64,000 nucleotides of DNA from Escherichia phage vB_EcoM_JNE01 (OR670491); one strand, 5' to 3'. Positions 5,778 through 34,217 are shown, counted from the stretch's first letter. Translations and numbers: made by a program. The notes: generated by a model not told the origin, from the sequence alone.

Positions 5778-5909
5778 ATGAACGGATTAAAGAAGTTTGG
5801 AACTGACGTTCTTAAGTGCATTCGATACACTTATGACGCTAATCCAGAAATGACTGCAATTGTGGGTGTTTTCATTGCACTCGTTGTTTTATCTTGTATT
5901 ATGGTGTAA
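5778..5909 (+). CDS. small membrane peptide (43 aa), not in ORF track
   Basis: ATG preceded by AAAGGAAA; C-terminal hydrophobic helix AIVGVFIALVVLSCIMV. Confidence 0.3.
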   Translation: MNGLKKFGTDVLKCIRYTYDANPEMTAIVGVFIALVVLSCIMV

Positions 5910-6123: not shown

Positions 6124-6534
6124 ATGATTGAAATGGAAGGAACTCTGGTGTATGATCCAGATCGTGGCACTATGAAAAAGAAGAAGGACTTCTGGTTAGT
6201 ACTGCAACTTCCATTACAGTTGGTTCGATACTACCAGTACTTCATCAGAACTGACTTACATATTGATATTAAAGACCCACAATGGGGAGCACATGTCAGT
6301 ATCGTTCGTGGTGAAGTGCCACCAAATCCAGAGTACTGGAAAAAGTACGATGGTATGAAAGTTAAGATTAAGTTCGAACCTTTCATCGAAGAAGTAAAAG
6401 ACAATAAGAAACCTGGGTCATTCTTTATCATAGAGTTTGAAGATGATTTCATTGCACAAATTCGTGATGAACTTGGTTTAGCATCTAAATATTTCAAATA
6501 TCACATCACCATTGGTAGAACATACTACGATTAA
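6124..6534 (+). CDS. 2H phosphoesterase superfamily protein (LigT/cyclic phosphodiesterase-like; possibly Acb1-like)
   Basis: Two H-x-[ST]-x motifs (HVSI near residue 57, HITI near residue 127) in a 136-aa protein, the 2H hallmark. Confidence 0.5.
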   Translation: MIEMEGTLVYDPDRGTMKKKKDFWLVLQLPLQLVRYYQYFIRTDLHIDIKDPQWGAHVSIVRGEVPPNPEYWKKYDGMKVKIKFEPFIEEVKDNKKPGSFFIIEFEDDFIAQIRDELGLASKYFKYHITIGRTYYD

Positions 6535-6557: not shown

Positions 6558-6585
6558 TTGATATAACTAAAAAGTATGCTATACT
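6558..6585 (+). promoter_or_regulatory. sigma70-like promoter (TTGATA, 16-nt spacer, TGcTATACT)
   Basis: Motif upstream of the endolysin gene. Confidence 0.4.
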
Positions 6586-6701
6586 ACTTAAATGTTCCAA
6601 AGAACAACTGAGTACTGTAGAAAGTCCAATGAGGCTTTTGCAAATGGCCTCTTTGCCCTCTTTGTGATTGCTCATTGTTAACAACCAACAAAGGAGGCGT
6701 T

Positions 6702-7628
6702 TTGAAAAAAGCGAAAAAAGCACTGAAAACTAAAATTGCCGTAGGCGTATTAGTTTCATCAGCCCTATTCGCTGCTATTGGATTTTATGGTTTTTCTCAA
6801 AGTGATCATGTACCATCATTAGACGAAAGTCAGGTGCATAATTTAAAACCACAGTTTACTCAAATTCAAAAGCAGGAACTACCACAGGTATCAGTACCAA
6901 AAGCAGTTCCAAGCAGCGAGAAACATTATACGGTTCAACCTGGAGATAGTTATTATTCTATTGCACAGAAATTTAAACCTAAAAATGTACAGATTGAAGA
7001 TTATGTCATTTTGTTGAAGAACATCAACTTAAATGCAACTCTTCATACTTCTCAGGGTATCTTTATCCCAACAAAAGAGGATTTGAAGAACGTATTGTTA
7101 CCAGATGTGACTGTACTGTTTGATTATAAAGATCCAGAAATTGTCAATCACATCAAAGAAGCTGAAGGTTCTATTGAATTTCAGTCCAAGAACAAACGAC
7201 GTTTACTTGGTGGGAAAGTTGGAGTTCCATATCGAAATTCTAAATTTTATCCGTATCGTGATATAAAAGGTAACTTCACTATTGGGTACGGACATTATCT
7301 TGGAAAGAAAGAATCAGATGCAAGTAAGTATCGTAATGGTATTACGAAGTCACAAGCACATAAACTTTTATTGTCTGACATGGAACGAACTAATAATGAT
7401 TTAGTTTTATTATTGAAGAAAAGAAATGCAACAAACCTTACGGCTGAACAGCAACGAATTTTATTTGAGATGGCATTTACATTAGGAGTTGATAAGTTAA
7501 ATACTTTCAATAAATTATGGAAAAGCGTTGATAATCAAAATGATAACAAGTTCAAAAAAGAAATTAAGAATTCTCTATGGTATCGTCAAGTAGGAAACCG
7601 TGCAGAATTGTTAGTTAGTAATTTGTAA
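6702..7628 (+). CDS. endolysin: N-terminal membrane anchor, LysM domain, T4 e-type (GH24) lysozyme domain
   Basis: TIGYGHYLGK and SLWYRQVGNRAELLV match the T4 lysozyme catalytic region; YTVQPGDSYYSIAQKF is LysM; hydrophobic IAVGVLVSSALFAAIGFYGF. Start set to TTG after AAAGGAGG; ORF track begins at 6675. Confidence 0.8.
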   Translation: MKKAKKALKTKIAVGVLVSSALFAAIGFYGFSQSDHVPSLDESQVHNLKPQFTQIQKQELPQVSVPKAVPSSEKHYTVQPGDSYYSIAQKFKPKNVQIEDYVILLKNINLNATLHTSQGIFIPTKEDLKNVLLPDVTVLFDYKDPEIVNHIKEAEGSIEFQSKNKRRLLGGKVGVPYRNSKFYPYRDIKGNFTIGYGHYLGKKESDASKYRNGITKSQAHKLLLSDMERTNNDLVLLLKKRNATNLTAEQQRILFEMAFTLGVDKLNTFNKLWKSVDNQNDNKFKKEIKNSLWYRQVGNRAELLVSNL

Positions 7629-7636
7629 TTTACAAT

Positions 7637-7667
7637 AAAGGATGATATGTATCATCCTTTATTTTTA
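7637..7667 (+). terminator. intrinsic terminator (AAAGGATGAT/ATCATCCTTT)
   Basis: 10-bp stem, 4-nt loop, then ATTTTT. Confidence 0.65.
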
Positions 7668-7677
7668 AGGTAAAAAT

Positions 7678-8310
7678 ATGATATATAATGTTGGTATAAA
7701 TGATGTACCAGGTGATTCTAAATCGGATAGTGATGGTTATTATATATATGTGAAATGGAAAAGTATGATTAAACGATGCTACTCAGTTGAATATCAAAAA
7801 ATACACCATTCATATATTGGAACAACTGTATGTAATGAATGGCTTACATATTCAAATTTTAAAGATTGGTATCTAAATAATTACATAGACGGGTATGTTT
7901 TAGATAAAGACTTGATATCGGGTGATTTACAAGTATACTCACCAGTGACATGTTCATTTGTACCACAAGAATTAAATTGTTCTATTCTTGAAAGTAATAG
8001 TGCTAAAACAAAACTACCATTGGGTGTGTCATATCAACAGAAAACTAAAAATATGATAAATGAACGTTCGAAACCATATGATTCATATATAAAAATGTAT
8101 GGTAAGTTGTATCGTCTTGGTAGTTATGAATGTCCTGAACTTGCACATAAAGAATGGCAAATCGCCAAGAAAAAATATCTCGAAGAACTCATTGACAGAT
8201 ATAAAAATTCTGTTAAAATGGAAGTCATAGAAGGTATTCAGAAACGAATTGATATATTACATAATGATATAGTCAATGACGGTGTTACAATAACAATCAA
8301 TAAGATATAA
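7678..8310 (+). mobile_element. free-standing HNH (HNH_3)/AP2-type homing endonuclease gene
   Basis: Pattern YxxWxxMxxRCY ... VCxEW ... LDKD ... YSPVTC and AP2-like GVSYQQKTKNM; very AT-rich, bracketed by terminators. Confidence 0.5.
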
Positions 8311-8322
8311 GGTAGGTAAATT

Positions 8323-8649
8323 ATGCTAAATTTCGTTATCCAAGGTAATGTAGATGTTACTCCAGCAATTCATGACGCAATCCGCGATGAAGCAACAGTA
8401 CTAAGTAAATTTAGTGATGCTTCAGTACTGAATCTTGGTGTTCATCTGAAGAAAGAGCATAAAACACAGTACACTGTAACACTAACTTCTAATGGTAAGT
8501 CTGTTACTGCAAATGCAGCAGATTTATACAAAGCGATTAGTGATTCATTTGAAAAAATGGAAGTTGTACTTGGTAAAGACAAAAGCATTAAACTGCATCG
8601 TCGTAACCACCCAACACGTCCTCTGGACTTGACAGAAGACGAAGAGTAA
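8323..8649 (+). CDS. ribosome hibernation factor (HPF/RaiA/YfiA family)
   Basis: 108-aa protein collinear with E. coli YfiA/HPF as recalled: VTPAIHDAIRD, NLGVHLKKEHK, TVTLTSNGKSVTANAADLYKAISDSFEKMEVVLGK. Confidence 0.7.
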   Translation: MLNFVIQGNVDVTPAIHDAIRDEATVLSKFSDASVLNLGVHLKKEHKTQYTVTLTSNGKSVTANAADLYKAISDSFEKMEVVLGKDKSIKLHRRNHPTRPLDLTEDEE

Positions 8650-30049: not shown

Positions 30050-30691
30050 ATGGCTATTCGTCACACTGGTGTAATGCGTAATACAGGTTCACGAGTTTTC
30101 GTTGTATGGCGTGCACTACCAGATGATCCACAACATTGCTTGGTAATTTATCGTGATTCACTTCCAGAAGCATATGTATATGCCGTGACTGATATTGTCA
30201 ACAATCAAGGTCAAAGCTCAATCGACCTATGGGAAGTTATGCACAAGATTGGTTATCTAGATGGACGTAAAATGCTAGATGTTCTACACAATATGCAGTA
30301 CTTACATCGTGTTCGCACTTGTGACATTGATATGCATACTGGTGGTAACAACAAGATTTCTCTTGACGTTCTAAACGCTGCTATCGATGAAGGTAACAAA
30401 GTACACCAAGATAGCAAAGTAAAAGATTTCAATCCATTTGCACCACAAGAAGTTGATACCAGCGTTGAAGATGCTACTATCGTAGGTCAACTACTAGCTG
30501 ATGCTCGTAAACACGAGAAACTAGCTCAAGACTTCTATGAGCGTGCATATAACCTAGAACCTTCACTTCGTACTGAAGTTAAAGTTGAAGCAGTAACTCC
30601 AGGTACATTCACTGTTGAATTCCCTGAAGGTATTTCACAAACTAAAGCAATCGAACGTGTTAAGAAAGCTCTTGCAGAGCGTAAAGCATAA
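30050..30691 (+). CDS. hypothetical protein
   Basis: 213-aa ORF with GAAGGGG SD. Confidence 0.5.
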   Translation: MAIRHTGVMRNTGSRVFVVWRALPDDPQHCLVIYRDSLPEAYVYAVTDIVNNQGQSSIDLWEVMHKIGYLDGRKMLDVLHNMQYLHRVRTCDIDMHTGGNNKISLDVLNAAIDEGNKVHQDSKVKDFNPFAPQEVDTSVEDATIVGQLLADARKHEKLAQDFYERAYNLEPSLRTEVKVEAVTPGTFTVEFPEGISQTKAIERVKKALAERKA

Positions 30692-30696
30692 GTTCT

Positions 30697-31293
30697 ATGA
30701 AAATAACCGAATTAGATGAAGCAATTCGTGGCTTTTCTAATACGTTTTTCAGTGGCGGGGCAGATGGTGCTGACCGCCATTTTACATTATATGCTCTTGA
30801 AAAGGGATTCAATGTAATCAACTTTTCTTTCAGGGGTCATAATCATAGTGTAGATGAAGATACAATATTAGAAATACCTTCTCATATTTTATGTGATAGT
30901 ACAGTACTGAAACAATTAAACATGGCATGTTACTCTTTGCAGCGTAAAGTACCTAAGCCTGGTTCTTACGTATTCAACTTACTAGCACGTAATCGTTATC
31001 AAATTCTAAACACAGAACGAGTTTATTGTATTGCAAAAATCGAATCACCAACTAGAGTTAGTGGCGGTACTGCATGGGCAGTTCAAATGTATATGGATAG
31101 TGTTGACAATCCTGAAATCTATTGTTATGATATGAATTCAAAAAGTGTGTATACATTTGACAATACAAATAAAGAGTTCGTTGAAGTATTCACTATTCCT
31201 GCACCACATGGTAATTGGACAGGAATTGGTTCTCGAAATGCAACTGTTAAGCATTTTGAGCATTTCAAAACATTTTTCAAGGAAGACAAATGA
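30697..31293 (+). CDS. hypothetical protein with DprA/Smf-like (SLOG-type Rossmann) signature
   Basis: FSGGADGADRHFTLYAL and LARNRYQIL ... SGGTAWAVQ resemble the DprA motifs SGxAxGxDxxAH and RNR...SG; recalled only. Confidence 0.35.
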   Translation: MKITELDEAIRGFSNTFFSGGADGADRHFTLYALEKGFNVINFSFRGHNHSVDEDTILEIPSHILCDSTVLKQLNMACYSLQRKVPKPGSYVFNLLARNRYQILNTERVYCIAKIESPTRVSGGTAWAVQMYMDSVDNPEIYCYDMNSKSVYTFDNTNKEFVEVFTIPAPHGNWTGIGSRNATVKHFEHFKTFFKEDK

Positions 31294-32219
31294 AACAACT
31301 ACAAGAGCTATATCAAAAAATTCTAGATGAAGGCGTAGAAAGCGTTGACCGTACTGGTGTTGGTACAATCAAACTAATCGGACAACAAATGCGTTTTGAT
31401 TTGTCGGAAGGTTTTCCAGCAGTGACAACTAAACGTTTAGCTTGGAAAGCAATGACCTCGGAATTGTTATGGTTCATTGAAGGTTCCCATGATGAACGTC
31501 GTCTATGTGAAATTCTACATGGTACTCGTGATTGGGAAAAAGTGACAATCTGGACTGGTAATTACAAAAACCAAGGTGTTAATCTTGGATACACCGATGG
31601 TGAGTTGGGTCCAGTTTATGGCAAACAATGGCGTTGCTGGGAAGATTACAAATTCAGTGCTGTTACCGAAGAAATTCAAGAATTGAAAGACAAAGGATAC
31701 AAAGTACTGGATTATACAGGTTCACATGGTGTTGTTATGAAACGCACCACTGACCAGCTAATGGATCTAATCAATGGTATCAAAGAAGATCCATACGGTC
31801 GTCGTCACATTCTTTCCGCATGGAACGTTGGTGAACTTGACCAAATGACATTACCACCATGTCATAGCTTTGTTCAGTTCTGTGTTGTTCAAGGTAAACT
31901 AAGCTGCATTCTACATCAACGTAGTGCTGATATGTTCTTGGGTGTTCCATTCAATATTAGTAGCTATTCTCTACTAACACATATTATTGCACAAATTACT
32001 GGGTTAGATGTTGGTGAGTTTATTTGGAATGGTGGAGACTGCCACATTTACAAAAACCACGTTGAACAAGTAAAAGAACAACTACTTCGTGAGCCACACG
32101 AACTACCAGAATTATGGTTAGATCCTTCAATTACTTCTATCGAAGATTTGAAAATGAATTCATTCAAACTACTGAATTACAATCCAATGGCAACAATCAA
32201 AGCACCAATGGCTGTATAA
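31290..32219 (+). CDS. thyA: thymidylate synthase (ThyA type)
   Basis: MRFDLSEGFPAVTTKR, ELLWFIEG, active-site PPCH, SADMFLGVPFNI; 309 aa. Confidence 0.9.
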   Translation: MKQLQELYQKILDEGVESVDRTGVGTIKLIGQQMRFDLSEGFPAVTTKRLAWKAMTSELLWFIEGSHDERRLCEILHGTRDWEKVTIWTGNYKNQGVNLGYTDGELGPVYGKQWRCWEDYKFSAVTEEIQELKDKGYKVLDYTGSHGVVMKRTTDQLMDLINGIKEDPYGRRHILSAWNVGELDQMTLPPCHSFVQFCVVQGKLSCILHQRSADMFLGVPFNISSYSLLTHIIAQITGLDVGEFIWNGGDCHIYKNHVEQVKEQLLREPHELPELWLDPSITSIEDLKMNSFKLLNYNPMATIKAPMAV

Positions 32220-32225
32220 ACGAAA

Positions 32226-32251
32226 GGGAGAACATATGTTCTCCCTTTTTT
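32226..32251. terminator. bidirectional terminator (palindrome GGGAGAACATATGTTCTCCC with A-run/T-run flanks)
   Basis: Perfect palindrome between the convergent thyA and fibre genes. Confidence 0.7.
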
Positions 32252-32252
32252 A

Positions 32253-34217
32253 TTATCTTAATGTTACCAATGTTCTTCCAGCAAACCTTACATCAGGTGA
32301 AGAAGGGATGCTAAAGACCACGTTAGTGCCGTTAAACGTCACGCTATCGACCTCAACTCGTGTATACACACCAGTACTCACTAGTTCCTGAATCTCTGCT
32401 GTAACGATGTTACTGGCTGTTACAGTGAGTGTATAGTAGTCACCACTAAGCACCCATGCAGACGCAGTGAATGGGTCAGTACGAACAGAACCAGAACCGA
32501 TTGGAACCCACTGTCCTTGTACTTTTTGCATTGATGTACGTTCGGTGTTGGAGTATGCAATCATACCATCTACACCTACACTGTTATCAATAGTAGCTAG
32601 TACTGGTAATTGAATACCATAACGGTTGAAACGTGTACGAATAGTACCATTATCAAGAATAGTTACGTCAGCGTAATTACCCATAGATACTTTTAAATCA
32701 GCACTTAGCAATTGAATAGTTGATTGGTTAGCTGTACTTTCTAAAGTAAAGATACCACTTTCCATTAGATTAAGATTTTTGAATCTATTACTTGCAGCAT
32801 TGAATACGGTATTAGCTGCAAAAGTACTTACACCATTGATAGTAACTGTATCAGTATTAGCATCACCTAAAACAGTATTACCTTTAACGTTCAGGTTACC
32901 ACTTGCTGTAATGTTAGTTACGTTCAAACCACCACTAAGAGTAGTTGCACCATCAACTGTCAAATCACCATGAAGTACTGTAATACCATTTCTAAATTCA
33001 GCTTGAACTTTGTTCATTGAACTTAGTGAGATAATATTACTATCACCACTAATACCTACGTTAGTATTAGTTGCATTATCAAAACGTATAGTTGGAGTAG
33101 CTGCTGGTGTTGTATTTGAATAGTAAAGTACTAATGCACCATTAGTTACACGTACACGTTCAGTTCCATTAGTCGTGAAACCAATAGTATCATCTTGTGG
33201 ATGGAAAATACCAGTATTCGGGTCAGACCATTTGGCTGGATCATTACCTGGGTTTGTTATTGGATCAAATGCGTTATTGTTAAATGACAATGCTGGAGCA
33301 GAGGCTGTACCATATGTTATACCAAAACGACCTGCACCTTTAGTTCCATCGTCATACATGGAATCACCATCACGACGAAGACCTTCAACTGCAATGTTAT
33401 CAAGCATAGTTTGAACAGTACTGGAGTTTTTAACGAACTCACGATTGTTTGCAATCATTACTGTATTATCATATAATACTGAAGCCGCTGCAATACTTGC
33501 TCTTGATTGACGCAAACGAATGTTTTTAGTATCAGTTATAATAATCCAGTCACCATCAGAAAGTGCGGTTTGGTTCATAGGTGAACCACTAGCAAATGCG
33601 TTTGTCAAATCAGTGTCTTGTGCAAGATTAACTAAACCAGTGTGACCTGTGGATGGAATTGAAGCAGTTACAATACGAGCAAATGCATAACTTACTAGTT
33701 TAGAACCAGCAACGATTGGATTGGAATCAACGTAATACATTATTTGAATCCAGTTCCCTTGACCAGTTGGGTTGGTAGGCGTAAATGTTACTGGACTTGT
33801 AGCTGGACTGTTTGCTTCAAAGTGAGCTTGTGCCGCGTCCATGATACCACGAACAACATAATAATCACCTTTAATACTTTCAGCAGGGGCTGGAAGTGGG
33901 CTTTGTGTTAGTGGAGGATCAATATCATCTTCAATAGGTGAATATGTACCAACGAATTGAAGACCACTGGTAATTGAATCAGGTAATTGTGAAGTTAATA
34001 GTTTACCATTGTTATCTAAGTTAGCAAATCTTCTATATGAAACCGTCCCATCTTCAAAATCAAGTACACCTTCAAACGCTTTCCATTCTTGGTTGTATCG
34101 AAACATACCAGACCTGATAACATCAGTTGTTTGTTTAGTTGGTGCTTTAGGTAATTCTAGAAAGGATTTACTATCTATAATTACACCGCCATCACCTCTA
34201 ATTCGATTTATACTCAT
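32253..34217 (-). CDS. tail fibre protein
   Basis: 654 aa, Thr/Ser/Asn/Gly-rich beta-type repeats (NGTERVRVTNGALVL); GAGGAAA SD. Confidence 0.55.
   Translation of the reverse strand: MSINRIRGDGGVIIDSKSFLELPKAPTKQTTDVIRSGMFRYNQEWKAFEGVLDFEDGTVSYRRFANLDNNGKLLTSQLPDSITSGLQFVGTYSPIEDDIDPPLTQSPLPAPAESIKGDYYVVRGIMDAAQAHFEANSPATSPVTFTPTNPTGQGNWIQIMYYVDSNPIVAGSKLVSYAFARIVTASIPSTGHTGLVNLAQDTDLTNAFASGSPMNQTALSDGDWIIITDTKNIRLRQSRASIAAASVLYDNTVMIANNREFVKNSSTVQTMLDNIAVEGLRRDGDSMYDDGTKGAGRFGITYGTASAPALSFNNNAFDPITNPGNDPAKWSDPNTGIFHPQDDTIGFTTNGTERVRVTNGALVLYYSNTTPAATPTIRFDNATNTNVGISGDSNIISLSSMNKVQAEFRNGITVLHGDLTVDGATTLSGGLNVTNITASGNLNVKGNTVLGDANTDTVTINGVSTFAANTVFNAASNRFKNLNLMESGIFTLESTANQSTIQLLSADLKVSMGNYADVTILDNGTIRTRFNRYGIQLPVLATIDNSVGVDGMIAYSNTERTSMQKVQGQWVPIGSGSVRTDPFTASAWVLSGDYYTLTVTASNIVTAEIQELVSTGVYTRVEVDSVTFNGTNVVFSIPSSPDVRFAGRTLVTLR

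What the first reader, a model, noticed from the sequence alone, without database searches (positions are those of the whole stretch)
6675..7628. Endolysin with membrane anchor plus LysM plus T4-type lysozyme, apparently starting on TTG
The catalytic domain matches T4 lysozyme, but it is preceded by a hydrophobic segment and a LysM module, and the only start with a good SD (AAAGGAGG) is a TTG. This suggests signal-anchor-release style export rather than holin-dependent release.
Basis: partly seen in the sequence, partly recalled or inferred. Interest (0 to 1): 0.35.

Follow-up and report, generated by a model that had tools for sequence, protein, structure and literature searches.

The report
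Membrane-anchored LysM lysozyme of jumbo coliphage
This gene of a 350-kb "jumbo" E. coli phage encodes a T4-type lysozyme carrying its own membrane anchor and a cell-wall-binding LysM module; the same protein family and the same export idea were already described for related phages in 2017, so it is real and mildly unusual but not new.

Summary
The ORF runs 6675-7628, but the Shine-Dalgarno AAAGGAGG (6690-6697) serves the in-frame TTG at 6702, giving 308 aa, as annotated in relatives.

The window is an Asteriusvirus-like jumbo coliphage, and the gene is the ortholog of 121Q gp532.

Architecture:
- Lys-rich N-tail
- hydrophobic helix, residues 12-31
- about 43-aa Pro/Gln-rich linker
- LysM, residues 75-121
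- T4-lysozyme fold, residues 145-308, with invariant E155, D187 and T193 and a 23-residue insertion between E and D

Buttimer et al. 2017 already described this family (CBB_187, GAP32 gp180, 121Q gp532, RaK2 gp506) as a transmembrane + LysM + lysozyme endolysin. They raised the signal-arrest-release idea and reported toxicity on induction.

Export independent of holin holes is plausible. Canonical SAR behaviour is doubtful:
- the anchor is separated from the catalytic domain
- the protein has no Cys
- distant family members have long cytoplasmic N-domains or very hydrophobic anchors
- the phages also carry a soluble 162-aa paralog

New details:
- non-ATG starts are conserved (TTG or GTG in 19 of 21 loci)
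- a 5' leader is conserved across genera

Novelty: already known. Interest: low to moderate.

The parts
6558..6585 (+). Candidate sigma-70-type promoter: TTGATA, 16 nt, TGcTATACT (extended -10)
   Evidence: scan: 10 of 12 matches, TG present. Such matches are not enriched in this region (13 found against 14.1 expected). The TTG and TATAcT positions are invariant across five Asteriusvirus relatives while the flanks vary (A2). Inferred, not shown.
6593..6606 (+). Leader hairpin H0 (TGTTC-CAAA-GAACA)
   Evidence: A hairpin sits at the same place in every lineage with a different stem: CTCACA/TGTGAG, TAGTA/TACTA, TAGTC/GACTA, TTAACTC/GAGTTAA, CAGTAT/ATACTG. This covariation was judged by eye and not tested formally.
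6609..6721 (+). Conserved 5' leader plus first codons (match to covariance model R1, built from Eneladus/Mimas-like relatives)
   Evidence: window E 0.004 at exactly this position. GTG-start lineage E 1.4e-5 to 2e-4. Other Asteriusvirus relatives E 0.004 to 0.04. No Rfam family matches.
6616..6642 (+). Leader hairpin A (TGTAGAAAGTCC ... GGCTTTTGCA), the most conserved block
   Evidence: The exact 13-mer occurs once in the window.
6647..6664 (+). Two CCUCUUU(G) anti-SD-like repeats
   Evidence: In a -75..+21 context the SD is paired with probability 0.85. In the full 136-nt leader the minimum-energy fold leaves the SD open and the z-score is only -0.55. Control genes reach similar pairing. Inconclusive.
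6690..6697 (+). Shine-Dalgarno AAAGGAGG, 4 nt before the start
   Evidence: AGGAGG plus a 4-nt spacer is conserved in all TTG-start lineages.
6702..7628 (+). CDS, 308 aa, TTG start: anchored LysM-GH24 muramidase (ortholog of 121Q gp532 / CBB_187)
   Evidence: PHROG 15410 matches over the full length, E 6e-157.
6735..6794 (+). Hydrophobic helix, residues 12-31 (signal anchor; N-in, C-out predicted)
   Evidence: Hessa sum +1.15, Kyte-Doolittle mean 1.99, charge +6 before and -3 after. Hydrophobic in all 32 aligned members.
6795..6923 (+). Pro/Gln/Ser-rich linker, residues 32-74, with the nearly invariant IQ of 'QIQKQ'
   Evidence: AlphaFold pLDDT below 50 for residues 1-72. Length is variable in A1; I55 and Q56 are conserved in at least 90% of members.
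6924..7064 (+). LysM domain, residues 75-121
7134..7625 (+). GH24 (T4-lysozyme-fold) catalytic domain, residues 145-308
7164..7166 (+). Catalytic Glu155 (equivalent to T4L E11)
   Evidence: Invariant in A1 and in the alignment with T4L and the two paralogs.
7167..7259 (+). 31 residues between Glu155 and Asp187 (T4L has 8): a conserved 23-residue insertion
   Evidence: AlphaFold places extra short strands here. The two paralogs share a shorter version of the insertion.
7260..7280 (+). Asp187-x5-Thr193 (T4L D20 and T26)
   Evidence: Invariant.
7635..7668 (+). Stem-loop plus U-run after the stop codon (terminator-like)
   Evidence: -15 kcal/mol, z -5.0, 0 of 200 shuffles fold as well. It lies in the segment that most relatives lack.

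Best explanation
The gene encodes a Sec-exported, type II (N-in/C-out) membrane-anchored muramidase of an Asteriusvirus-like jumbo coliphage. It is the ortholog of 121Q gp532 / CBB_187 / GAP32 gp180 / RaK2 gp506. Translation starts at TTG 6702. The Lys-rich tail stays in the cytoplasm and the helix (residues 12-31) spans the inner membrane. A disordered linker of about 43 residues carries a compact LysM + T4-lysozyme-fold module into the periplasm, where it can bind and cleave peptidoglycan (E155/D187/T193). It most likely serves host lysis, as the endolysin or as one of two. It reaches its substrate without needing holin-made holes. Whether it must leave the membrane (SAR-like) or works while tethered is unresolved. 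The linker and the distant relatives favour a stable tether. Production appears to be held low at translation initiation by a conserved non-ATG start behind a strong but close SD, with a conserved structured leader. Shown: ORF, start position, domains, fold, conserved catalytic residues, family distribution, conserved start codon and leader. Inferred: topology, export route, lysis role, translational throttling.
For: Identity and orthology. Domains and fold. Catalytic triad invariant in 32 members and shared with T4L. Positive-inside hydrophobic helix conserved. Export conserved across the whole family: every one of the 10 distant cluster representatives retrieved (of 12 clusters at E <= 1e-30) has a TM helix or signal-peptide-like N-terminus before LysM-GH24. 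No SD-linked ATG alternative exists, and the start is TTG or GTG in 19 of 21 distinct loci against about 94% ATG for neighbouring genes. The ortholog was not detected in the CBB virion proteome, and of the two lysozymes predicted for phAPEC6 only the large gp241 was detected in virions. Induction of CBB_187 inhibits E. coli growth (PMC5259590, PMC7247149). No holin or spanin is recognised by automated annotation of the Asteriusvirus ph0011.
Against: There are no experimental data for this protein or any ortholog beyond 'toxic, data not shown'. The same phages carry a soluble 162-aa T4-type lysozyme with an intact triad, sited in the baseplate operon and reported muralytic in vitro (LysUE1, PMC12805682). 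That protein could be the true endolysin. The gene sits among nucleotide-metabolism and translation genes behind a sigma-70-like promoter with no T4-type late promoter motif, which is atypical for a lysis gene. No holin, pinholin or spanin was found in the flanking genes. Topology and signal-peptidase predictors could not be run.
Confidence: 0.6

Rival explanations
1. Canonical SAR endolysin. The weakly hydrophobic helix holds the enzyme inactive in the membrane and leaves the bilayer when a pinholin or holin collapses the proton-motive force, releasing soluble active enzyme.
For: In this subgroup the helix is marginal: Hessa sum +1.15 and 47% Gly/Ala/Ser/Thr. The cytoplasmic tail is short (11 aa). 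There is no conserved small-x-small cleavage motif after the helix. The ortholog is toxic on induction.
Against: The catalytic domain is not adjacent to the helix; linker, LysM and connector make about 113 residues between them. The protein has no Cys, so P1-type caging is impossible. The GH24 domain models as complete without the helix (pLDDT above 90), so R21-type refolding is not needed. E-x31-D replaces the E-x8-D of class II SAR enzymes. A 43-residue linker could let the tethered enzyme reach the wall. Relatives have anchors of -1.5 to -2.5 kcal/mol, an Ile/Leu-rich anchor (P0088), or 65-95-aa cytoplasmic N-domains (P0084 and P0087, BLASTP 7e-10). No pinholin was identified.
Confidence: 0.25
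2. Accessory periplasmic wall-remodelling enzyme rather than the lysis enzyme. It is made from early or middle transcripts at low level, for example to loosen or remodel the sacculus during the long jumbo-phage cycle, while the soluble 162-aa paralog is the holin-dependent endolysin.
For: Genomic setting among early or metabolic genes, with conserved synteny to a 2H-phosphoesterase-like gene and a ribosome hibernation factor. Sigma-70-like promoter and no late-promoter motif. Conserved weak start codon. A soluble T4-like paralog with an intact triad lies in a late structural operon and has reported in vitro activity.
Against: No holin was recognised for a soluble enzyme to depend on. The 162-aa gene lies between gp25-like and gp5-like baseplate genes, which suggests a tail role. 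T4 gene e is also transcribed early (from memory). There are no timing data for any of these phages.
Confidence: 0.15
3. Secreted periplasmic enzyme with a cleavable signal peptide rather than an anchor.
For: In the window protein, Ser-Gln-Ser (residues 32-34) after the helix fits the -3/-1 small-residue rule. One distant member (P0086) has a short, classical-looking signal peptide.
Against: The hydrophobic stretch is about 20 residues, longer than usual Sec signal-peptide cores. The SQS motif is not conserved: relatives have SHN, YQN or NSH. No predictor was available, so this rests on sequence inspection.
Confidence: 0.08
4. Virion-associated wall-piercing lysozyme used at infection.
For: The best non-self PHROG match is the C-terminal lysozyme domain of the tail hub (phrog_13211, E 3e-20), and internal-virion lysozymes also match.
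Against: Virion proteomics of CBB and phAPEC6 detected the roughly 890-aa hub lysozyme but not this protein. An N-terminal membrane anchor is not expected for a tail protein. The gene is not in a structural operon.
Confidence: 0.03

Closest known systems
CBB_187 / GAP32 gp180 / 121Q gp532 / RaK2 gp506 (Rak2-like jumbo phage 'endolysin', Buttimer et al. 2017, PMC5259590)
   Same: Orthologous family. The window protein is the 121Q gp532 equivalent: its neighbours in Ecwhy_1 are labelled 121Q 531 and 534, and identity to TH47 is 99%. The TM + weak LysM + lysozyme architecture and the SAR suggestion are identical.
   Different: Nothing substantive. This report adds the conserved non-ATG start, the conserved leader, the E-D insertion shared with paralogs, and the distant members that argue against SAR release.
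T4 lysozyme (gp e, GH24) and the T4 gp5 lysozyme domain
   Same: Same fold (Foldseek probability 1.00, TM-score normalised to target about 0.6). Profile E 4e-17. Glu/Asp/Thr triad and Asp-x5-Thr conserved.
   Different: About 22-26% identity. There are 31 rather than 8 residues between Glu and Asp. It carries an N-terminal anchor, linker and LysM, whereas T4 e is a soluble, holin-dependent cytoplasmic enzyme.
SAR endolysins P1 Lyz and phage 21 R21 (GH24)
   Same: GH24 catalytic domain preceded by an N-terminal, weakly hydrophobic, uncleaved helix with a short basic tail. Export without holin holes is expected.
   Different: In SAR enzymes the helix abuts the catalytic domain and takes part in its regulation, and they have the E-x8-D-x5-T motif. 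Here about 113 residues, including a LysM, intervene, there is no Cys, and the spacing is E-x31-D.
Paralogs in the same phages: the 162-aa T4-type lysozyme (LysUE1 / CBB_239) and the roughly 890-aa gp5-like hub lysozyme (CBB_240 / phAPEC6 gp241)
   Same: About 31% identity to the window catalytic domain. They share the insertion motif YQxK...F(K/R)NxKF(W/Y)xY(K/R)D and the triad.
   Different: The paralogs lack the anchor and LysM, lie in the baseplate operon, and lack the extra 10 residues RRLLGGKVGV.
Modular Gram-negative endolysins KZ144 / EL188
   Same: An N-terminal peptidoglycan-binding module plus a C-terminal catalytic module in a phage of a Gram-negative host, which is rare.
   Different: A different binding-domain type (not LysM), a lytic transglycosylase rather than GH24, and no membrane anchor (as stated in PMC5259590).
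Translational control of T4 gene e by an RBS-occluding hairpin in early transcripts (McPheeters et al. 1986; recalled from memory)
   Same: A lysozyme gene with a structured leader that can pair with the SD or start codon. In the Eneladus/Mimas-like lineages a 13-14-bp stem covers the SD and an invariant 8-bp stem covers the TTG.
   Different: No late promoter lies inside the hairpin. In the window itself the occlusion is not thermodynamically distinctive. This is an analogy only.

Membership tests
GH24 / Pfam Phage_lysozyme (PF00959) | Significant match to the family profile | tested here: met
   38.3 bits against a gathering cut-off of 22.3, E 2e-9. All 32 members match. The profile hits T4 lysozyme chains at E 4e-17.
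GH24 / Pfam Phage_lysozyme (PF00959) | T4-lysozyme fold | tested here: met
   AlphaFold model has pLDDT above 90 for residues 73-308. Foldseek top hits are T4L and gp5 with probability 1.00.
GH24 / Pfam Phage_lysozyme (PF00959) | Catalytic Glu, Asp and Thr present | tested here: met
   E155, D187 and T193 are invariant in A1 and align with T4L E11, D20 and T26.
GH24 / Pfam Phage_lysozyme (PF00959) | Canonical E-x8-D-x5-T spacing | tested here: not met
   The spacing is E-x31-D-x5-T. Asp-x5-Thr is kept, and a conserved 23-residue insertion separates Glu and Asp.
LysM (PF01476) | Profile match above the curated cut-off | tested here: met
   21.4 bits against 20.9, but only profile positions 1-17 of 43 are covered. 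19 of 32 family members match, best E 1.3e-6.
LysM (PF01476) | Beta-alpha-alpha-beta fold | tested here: met
   AlphaFold elements: strand 75-77, helix 84-91, helix 98-108, strand 119-121, with pLDDT about 90.
SAR (signal-arrest-release) endolysin | N-terminal uncleaved TM helix with a short basic cytoplasmic tail | tested here: met
   Residues 12-31, tail net charge +6. Absence of cleavage was judged only from the lack of a conserved small-x-small motif.
SAR (signal-arrest-release) endolysin | Helix rich in weakly hydrophobic residues (Gly/Ala/Ser/Thr), marginal for membrane retention | tested here: inconclusive
   Window: 47% and +1.15 kcal/mol, close to P1 Lyz and R21 computed the same way. 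The family ranges from -2.5 to +5 kcal/mol and 21-53%. This is a simple additive scale, not a full predictor.
SAR (signal-arrest-release) endolysin | SAR helix directly precedes the catalytic domain and regulates it (Cys caging or refolding) | tested here: not met
   About 113 residues (linker, LysM, connector) intervene. The protein has no Cys. The catalytic domain models as complete on its own.
SAR (signal-arrest-release) endolysin | Release from the membrane on loss of proton-motive force; Sec-dependent export | not testable with these tools
   Needs fractionation with and without CCCP, and SecA inhibition.
SAR (signal-arrest-release) endolysin | Partner pinholin or holin | tested here: inconclusive
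   None among nine flanking ORFs by Pfam or PHROGs. None annotated in the Asteriusvirus ph0011. Lysis genes of T4-like phages are scattered, so absence nearby says little.
Endolysin (functional class) | Required for host lysis at the end of infection | not testable with these tools
   Only indirect evidence: absent from the virion proteomes of CBB and phAPEC6, and the ortholog is toxic on induction.
PHROG 15410 (Rak2-like TM-LysM-lysozyme family) | Full-length profile match | tested here: met
   E 5.9e-157 over residues 1-308 and profile positions 1-311 of 311.

The most novel reading that the evidence does not exclude
The family is a permanently tethered muramidase. Its long flexible linker lets the LysM-GH24 module reach the sacculus from the inner membrane. 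Its action is then timed not by a holin but at translation, through a conserved multi-hairpin 5' leader that is not in Rfam, together with an evolutionarily fixed TTG or GTG start. This would be a holin-independent, RNA-gated route to lysis or wall remodelling in Rak2-like jumbo phages.
Probability: 0.12. Interest if true: 0.6.

Novelty: already known. Interest (0 to 1): 0.25.

Why it matters
Lysis of Gram-negative hosts by jumbo phages is poorly understood. No holin or spanin has been recognised in Asteriusvirus genomes, and two different lysozymes have each been treated as the lysis enzyme in the literature. A self-exporting, wall-binding, membrane-anchored lysozyme would explain lysis without a classical holin. 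It is also a modular Gram-negative enzyme of possible use in enzybiotic design. For this scan, the value is mainly in showing that the finding is real, correctly read, already published as a prediction, and still untested. The specific 'SAR' label is weaker than it looks.

Tried and rejected
1. Start at 6675 was rejected. It has no SD, the SD lies downstream of it, and all annotated orthologs start at the 6702 equivalent.

2. SD occlusion as a distinctive feature of this gene was not sustained for the window.
   - P(SD paired) of 0.82-0.85 in a 96-nt context is matched by several control genes.
   - The full 136-nt leader folds no better than shuffles (z -0.55) and leaves the SD open in the minimum-energy fold.
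   - In the Eneladus/Mimas group the stem is 96% paired, against 40-63% for slid controls, but only 2 pairs covary and 28 of 500 shuffles reach the score.

3. A T4-gene-e-style late promoter inside the leader was not found. There is no TATAAATA or ATAAATA near the gene.

4. Rfam gave no match anywhere in the window.

5. The motif GTAGAAAGTCCAA as a repeated promoter or regulatory site was rejected. It has one exact copy, and near matches are at chance level.

6. Paralogs inside the window: none.

7. Lysis partners among nine flanking ORFs: none by Pfam or PHROGs.

8. The covariance model did not detect the leader in the RaK2-like or L027 lineages.

9. No paper reporting transcriptome data for these phages was found.

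10. The holin, endolysin and spanin mentioned in the ph0011 paper belong to the co-described T4-like phage, not to the Asteriusvirus.

11. A whole-genome inventory of one relative for holins and spanins was not done.

Full report
**What is in the sequence**

The + strand carries an ORF from 6675 to 7628. It is followed after four bases by an in-frame TTG at 6702. The gene is therefore 6702..7628, 308 codons.

The TTG at 6675 has no ribosome-binding site. There is no in-frame ATG before residue 226. Seven annotated relatives all start at the TTG equivalent to 6702.

**Where the window comes from**

Megablast places the region in Asteriusvirus-like jumbo coliphages of about 350 kb: 97.5% to TH47, 96.8% to Ecwhy_1, and 85-92% to PBECO4/121Q-type phages. 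In Ecwhy_1 the gene is flanked by genes labelled 121Q 531 and 534, so it is the ortholog of 121Q gp532.

Gene order is conserved across Asteriusvirus, Eneladusvirus and Mimasvirus genomes: a 2H-phosphoesterase-like gene, then the lysozyme, then a ribosome hibernation factor.

**Domains**

- Pfam gives Phage_lysozyme (residues 184-299, E 2e-9) and a partial LysM (76-92, 21.4 bits against a cut-off of 20.9).
- PHROG 15410, annotated 'unknown function', matches end to end (E 6e-157). The next best PHROG match is the C-terminal lysozyme domain of the tail hub (E 3e-20).
- 78 homologs were found, almost all 300-320 aa.
- In an alignment of 32 homologs down to 39% identity, E155, D187 and T193 are invariant and the N-terminal hydrophobic stretch is conserved.
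- 19 of the 32 hit LysM individually.
- AlphaFold2 with this alignment models residues 73-308 at pLDDT above 90. It gives a beta-alpha-alpha-beta LysM at 75-121, a structured connector, and a helical lysozyme domain. Residues 1-72 are unconfident.
- Foldseek against the PDB returns T4 lysozyme and T4 gp5. The family profile hits T4 lysozyme chains at E 4e-17.
- Glu155 and Asp187 are separated by 31 residues, against 8 in T4 lysozyme. The insertion is conserved.

**The anchor**

Residues 12-31 (IAVGVLVSSALFAAIGFYGF) follow a tail of net charge +6 and precede an acidic stretch, which predicts N-in/C-out.

I summed the Hessa biological hydrophobicity scale over the best 19-residue window.

| Protein | Hessa sum (kcal/mol) | Gly/Ala/Ser/Thr |
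|---|---|---|
| Window protein | +1.15 | 47% |
| P1 Lyz SAR segment (sequence from memory) | +0.46 | 53% |
| R21 SAR segment (sequence from memory) | +0.78 | 63% |
| Stable anchors (T4 holin T, FtsI; sequences from memory) | about -1.3 to -1.4 | 21-26% |

Across the family the value runs from -2.5 to +5 kcal/mol. The SQS that could be a cleavage site in the window protein is not conserved. No topology or signal-peptide predictor was available.

**Prior knowledge**

Buttimer et al. 2017 (PMC5259590) described CBB_187 and named its homologs GAP32 gp180, 121Q gp532 and RaK2 gp506. They reported:

- it is the predicted endolysin
- it has an N-terminal transmembrane domain, a weak LysM and a C-terminal lysozyme domain
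- the TM domain recalls signal-arrest-release endolysins

**Why strict SAR is doubtful**

In the characterised SAR enzymes the helix abuts the catalytic domain and controls it. Here about 113 residues intervene. The protein has no cysteine, and the GH24 domain is modelled as complete without the helix.

A 43-residue disordered linker is long enough in principle for a tethered enzyme to reach the wall. This is an inference from length alone.

An exhaustive profile search found only 12 clusters (at 50% identity) with the full architecture. The 10 retrieved all keep an export signal, but of different kinds:

- P0088 has an Ile/Leu-rich anchor.
- P0086 has a signal-peptide-like N-terminus.
- P0084 and P0087 share a homologous 65-95-residue cytoplasmic domain ahead of the helix (BLASTP 7e-10). 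Such a domain could not be drawn through the membrane.

Export is the conserved property. Release is not.

**Is it the endolysin?**

These phages have three related GH24 proteins.

- The roughly 890-aa gp5-like hub lysozyme is found in virions.
- A 162-aa soluble lysozyme lies between the gp25-like and gp5-like baseplate genes.
- The third is the present protein.

In Turkey5 the two other genes are at L032 30877-31365 and 31404-34067. All three share the triad and a version of the Glu-Asp insertion. The present protein has ten extra residues.

The 162-aa protein (LysUE1) was purified and reported muralytic (PMC12805682). In phAPEC6 only the hub lysozyme was detected in virions. Automated annotation of the Asteriusvirus ph0011 lists three lysozymes and no holin or spanin.

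Which non-virion lysozyme drives lysis is therefore open. I favour the anchored one for three reasons:

- it does not need a holin that nobody has found
- its ortholog is toxic on induction
- the small paralog sits in a baseplate operon

**Start codon and leader (new details)**

Start codons across 21 distinct homolog loci:

| Lineage | Start codon | SD and spacer |
|---|---|---|
| Asterius-, Eneladus- and Mimas-like | TTG | AGGAGG, or AAGGAG in two lineages; 4-5 nt (4 nt in most) |
| Salmonella SE_PL-like and one other | GTG | 6 nt |
| RaK2-like | ATG | 11 nt |

Neighbouring annotated genes are about 94% ATG. A weak start is thus a conserved trait of the family.

The 5' leader is conserved across genera.

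- The most conserved block is GTAGAAAGTCCAA followed by a hairpin.
- A covariance model built from Eneladus/Mimas-like leaders finds the corresponding site upstream of the gene in the GTG lineage (E 1e-5 to 2e-4) and in Asteriusvirus (window 6609-6721, E 0.004).
- It does not find the site in RaK2-like phages.
- A further hairpin just upstream has a different stem in every lineage.
- In the Eneladus/Mimas group a 13-14-bp stem covers the SD and an invariant 8-bp stem covers the TTG.
- In that group the first 42 or so codons are nearly frozen at synonymous sites: nucleotide diversity 0.04-0.09 against 0.2-0.39 in most of the rest of the gene.

Caution is needed.

- In the window, SD pairing is no stronger than in control genes.
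- The full leader folds no better than shuffles.
- Formal covariation is weak.
- No late promoter lies within the leader.

I read the leader as a real conserved element of unknown mechanism, plausibly limiting translation of a dangerous protein.

**Verdict**

The feature is real and correctly read apart from the start coordinate. It belongs to a known, published but experimentally untested family. The self-export idea is reasonable, but the strict SAR label is weak. Novelty: already known. Interest is low to moderate, mainly because jumbo-phage lysis is unresolved and because of the conserved weak start and leader.

Noticed in passing
window 6590-6725, and L002, L004, L005, L011-L023 upstream of the lysozyme start: A 5' leader of about 110-130 nt is conserved across genera and absent from Rfam. 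It comprises a lineage-specific hairpin H0, a highly conserved hairpin A (GUAGAAAGUCC...GGCUUUGUGCA) and stems over the SD and start codon. Covariance model R1 finds it in three lineage groups. Its mechanism is unknown.
   Followed up: partly
L002, L004, L005, L011, L016, L018, L020, L022, L023: first ~126 nt of the lysozyme CDS: Synonymous sites are almost invariant over the first 42 or so codons (cytoplasmic tail plus TM). Nucleotide diversity is 0.04-0.09 there against 0.2-0.39 in most of the rest of the gene. This suggests RNA-level constraint or recent recombination.
   Followed up: partly
window 7678-8310 (+): A 210-aa ORF matches only the C-terminal half of the HNH endonuclease PHROG 953 (positions 198-398 of 420). 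It sits between the lysozyme and hibernation-factor genes, where most relatives have only 16-25 nt. It is likely a degenerate homing-endonuclease insertion.
   Followed up: partly
window 8323-8649 (+): A phage-encoded ribosome hibernation factor (Pfam Ribosomal_S30AE, E 4e-11) lies immediately downstream of the lysozyme gene in all genera examined.
   Followed up: partly
window 6124-6534 (+): A 136-aa protein has two H-x-S/T motifs and a sub-threshold match to the 2H-SAK phosphoesterase domain (23.8 bits against a cut-off of 27). It lies immediately upstream of the lysozyme gene in the Asteriusvirus relatives examined.
   Followed up: partly
window 5778-5909 (+); L002 1626-1766; L004 143-283; L005 152-292: A 43-46-aa protein has an invariant Asn-Pro and a C-terminal hydrophobic segment. 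It keeps its place two to three genes upstream of the lysozyme in all genera (PHROG 37784, unknown function). It is a speculative membrane partner.
   Followed up: partly
proteins P0084, P0087 (and P0083) from the exhaustive profile search: These distant family members carry a cytoplasmic domain of about 65-95 aa ahead of the TM helix. The P0084 and P0087 domains are homologous (BLASTP 7e-10). This subfamily is bitopic and has an unknown cytoplasmic function.
   Followed up: partly
L032 (Turkey5) 30468-34067 (-): The baseplate operon carries a gp25-like gene, a 162-aa T4-type lysozyme and an 887-aa hub with a C-terminal lysozyme domain. Both lysozymes share the Glu-Asp insertion motif with the window protein.
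   Followed up: partly
window, whole + strand: There is no exact TATAAATA (the T4 late promoter) anywhere on the + strand, and only five ATAAATA, although the window contains structural genes such as the tail sheath (15383-18046).
   Followed up: no
window 7635-7668 (+): A strong stem-loop with a U-run follows the lysozyme stop codon (-15 kcal/mol, z -5.0). The simple terminator scan missed it because the stem is A/T-rich.
   Followed up: yes
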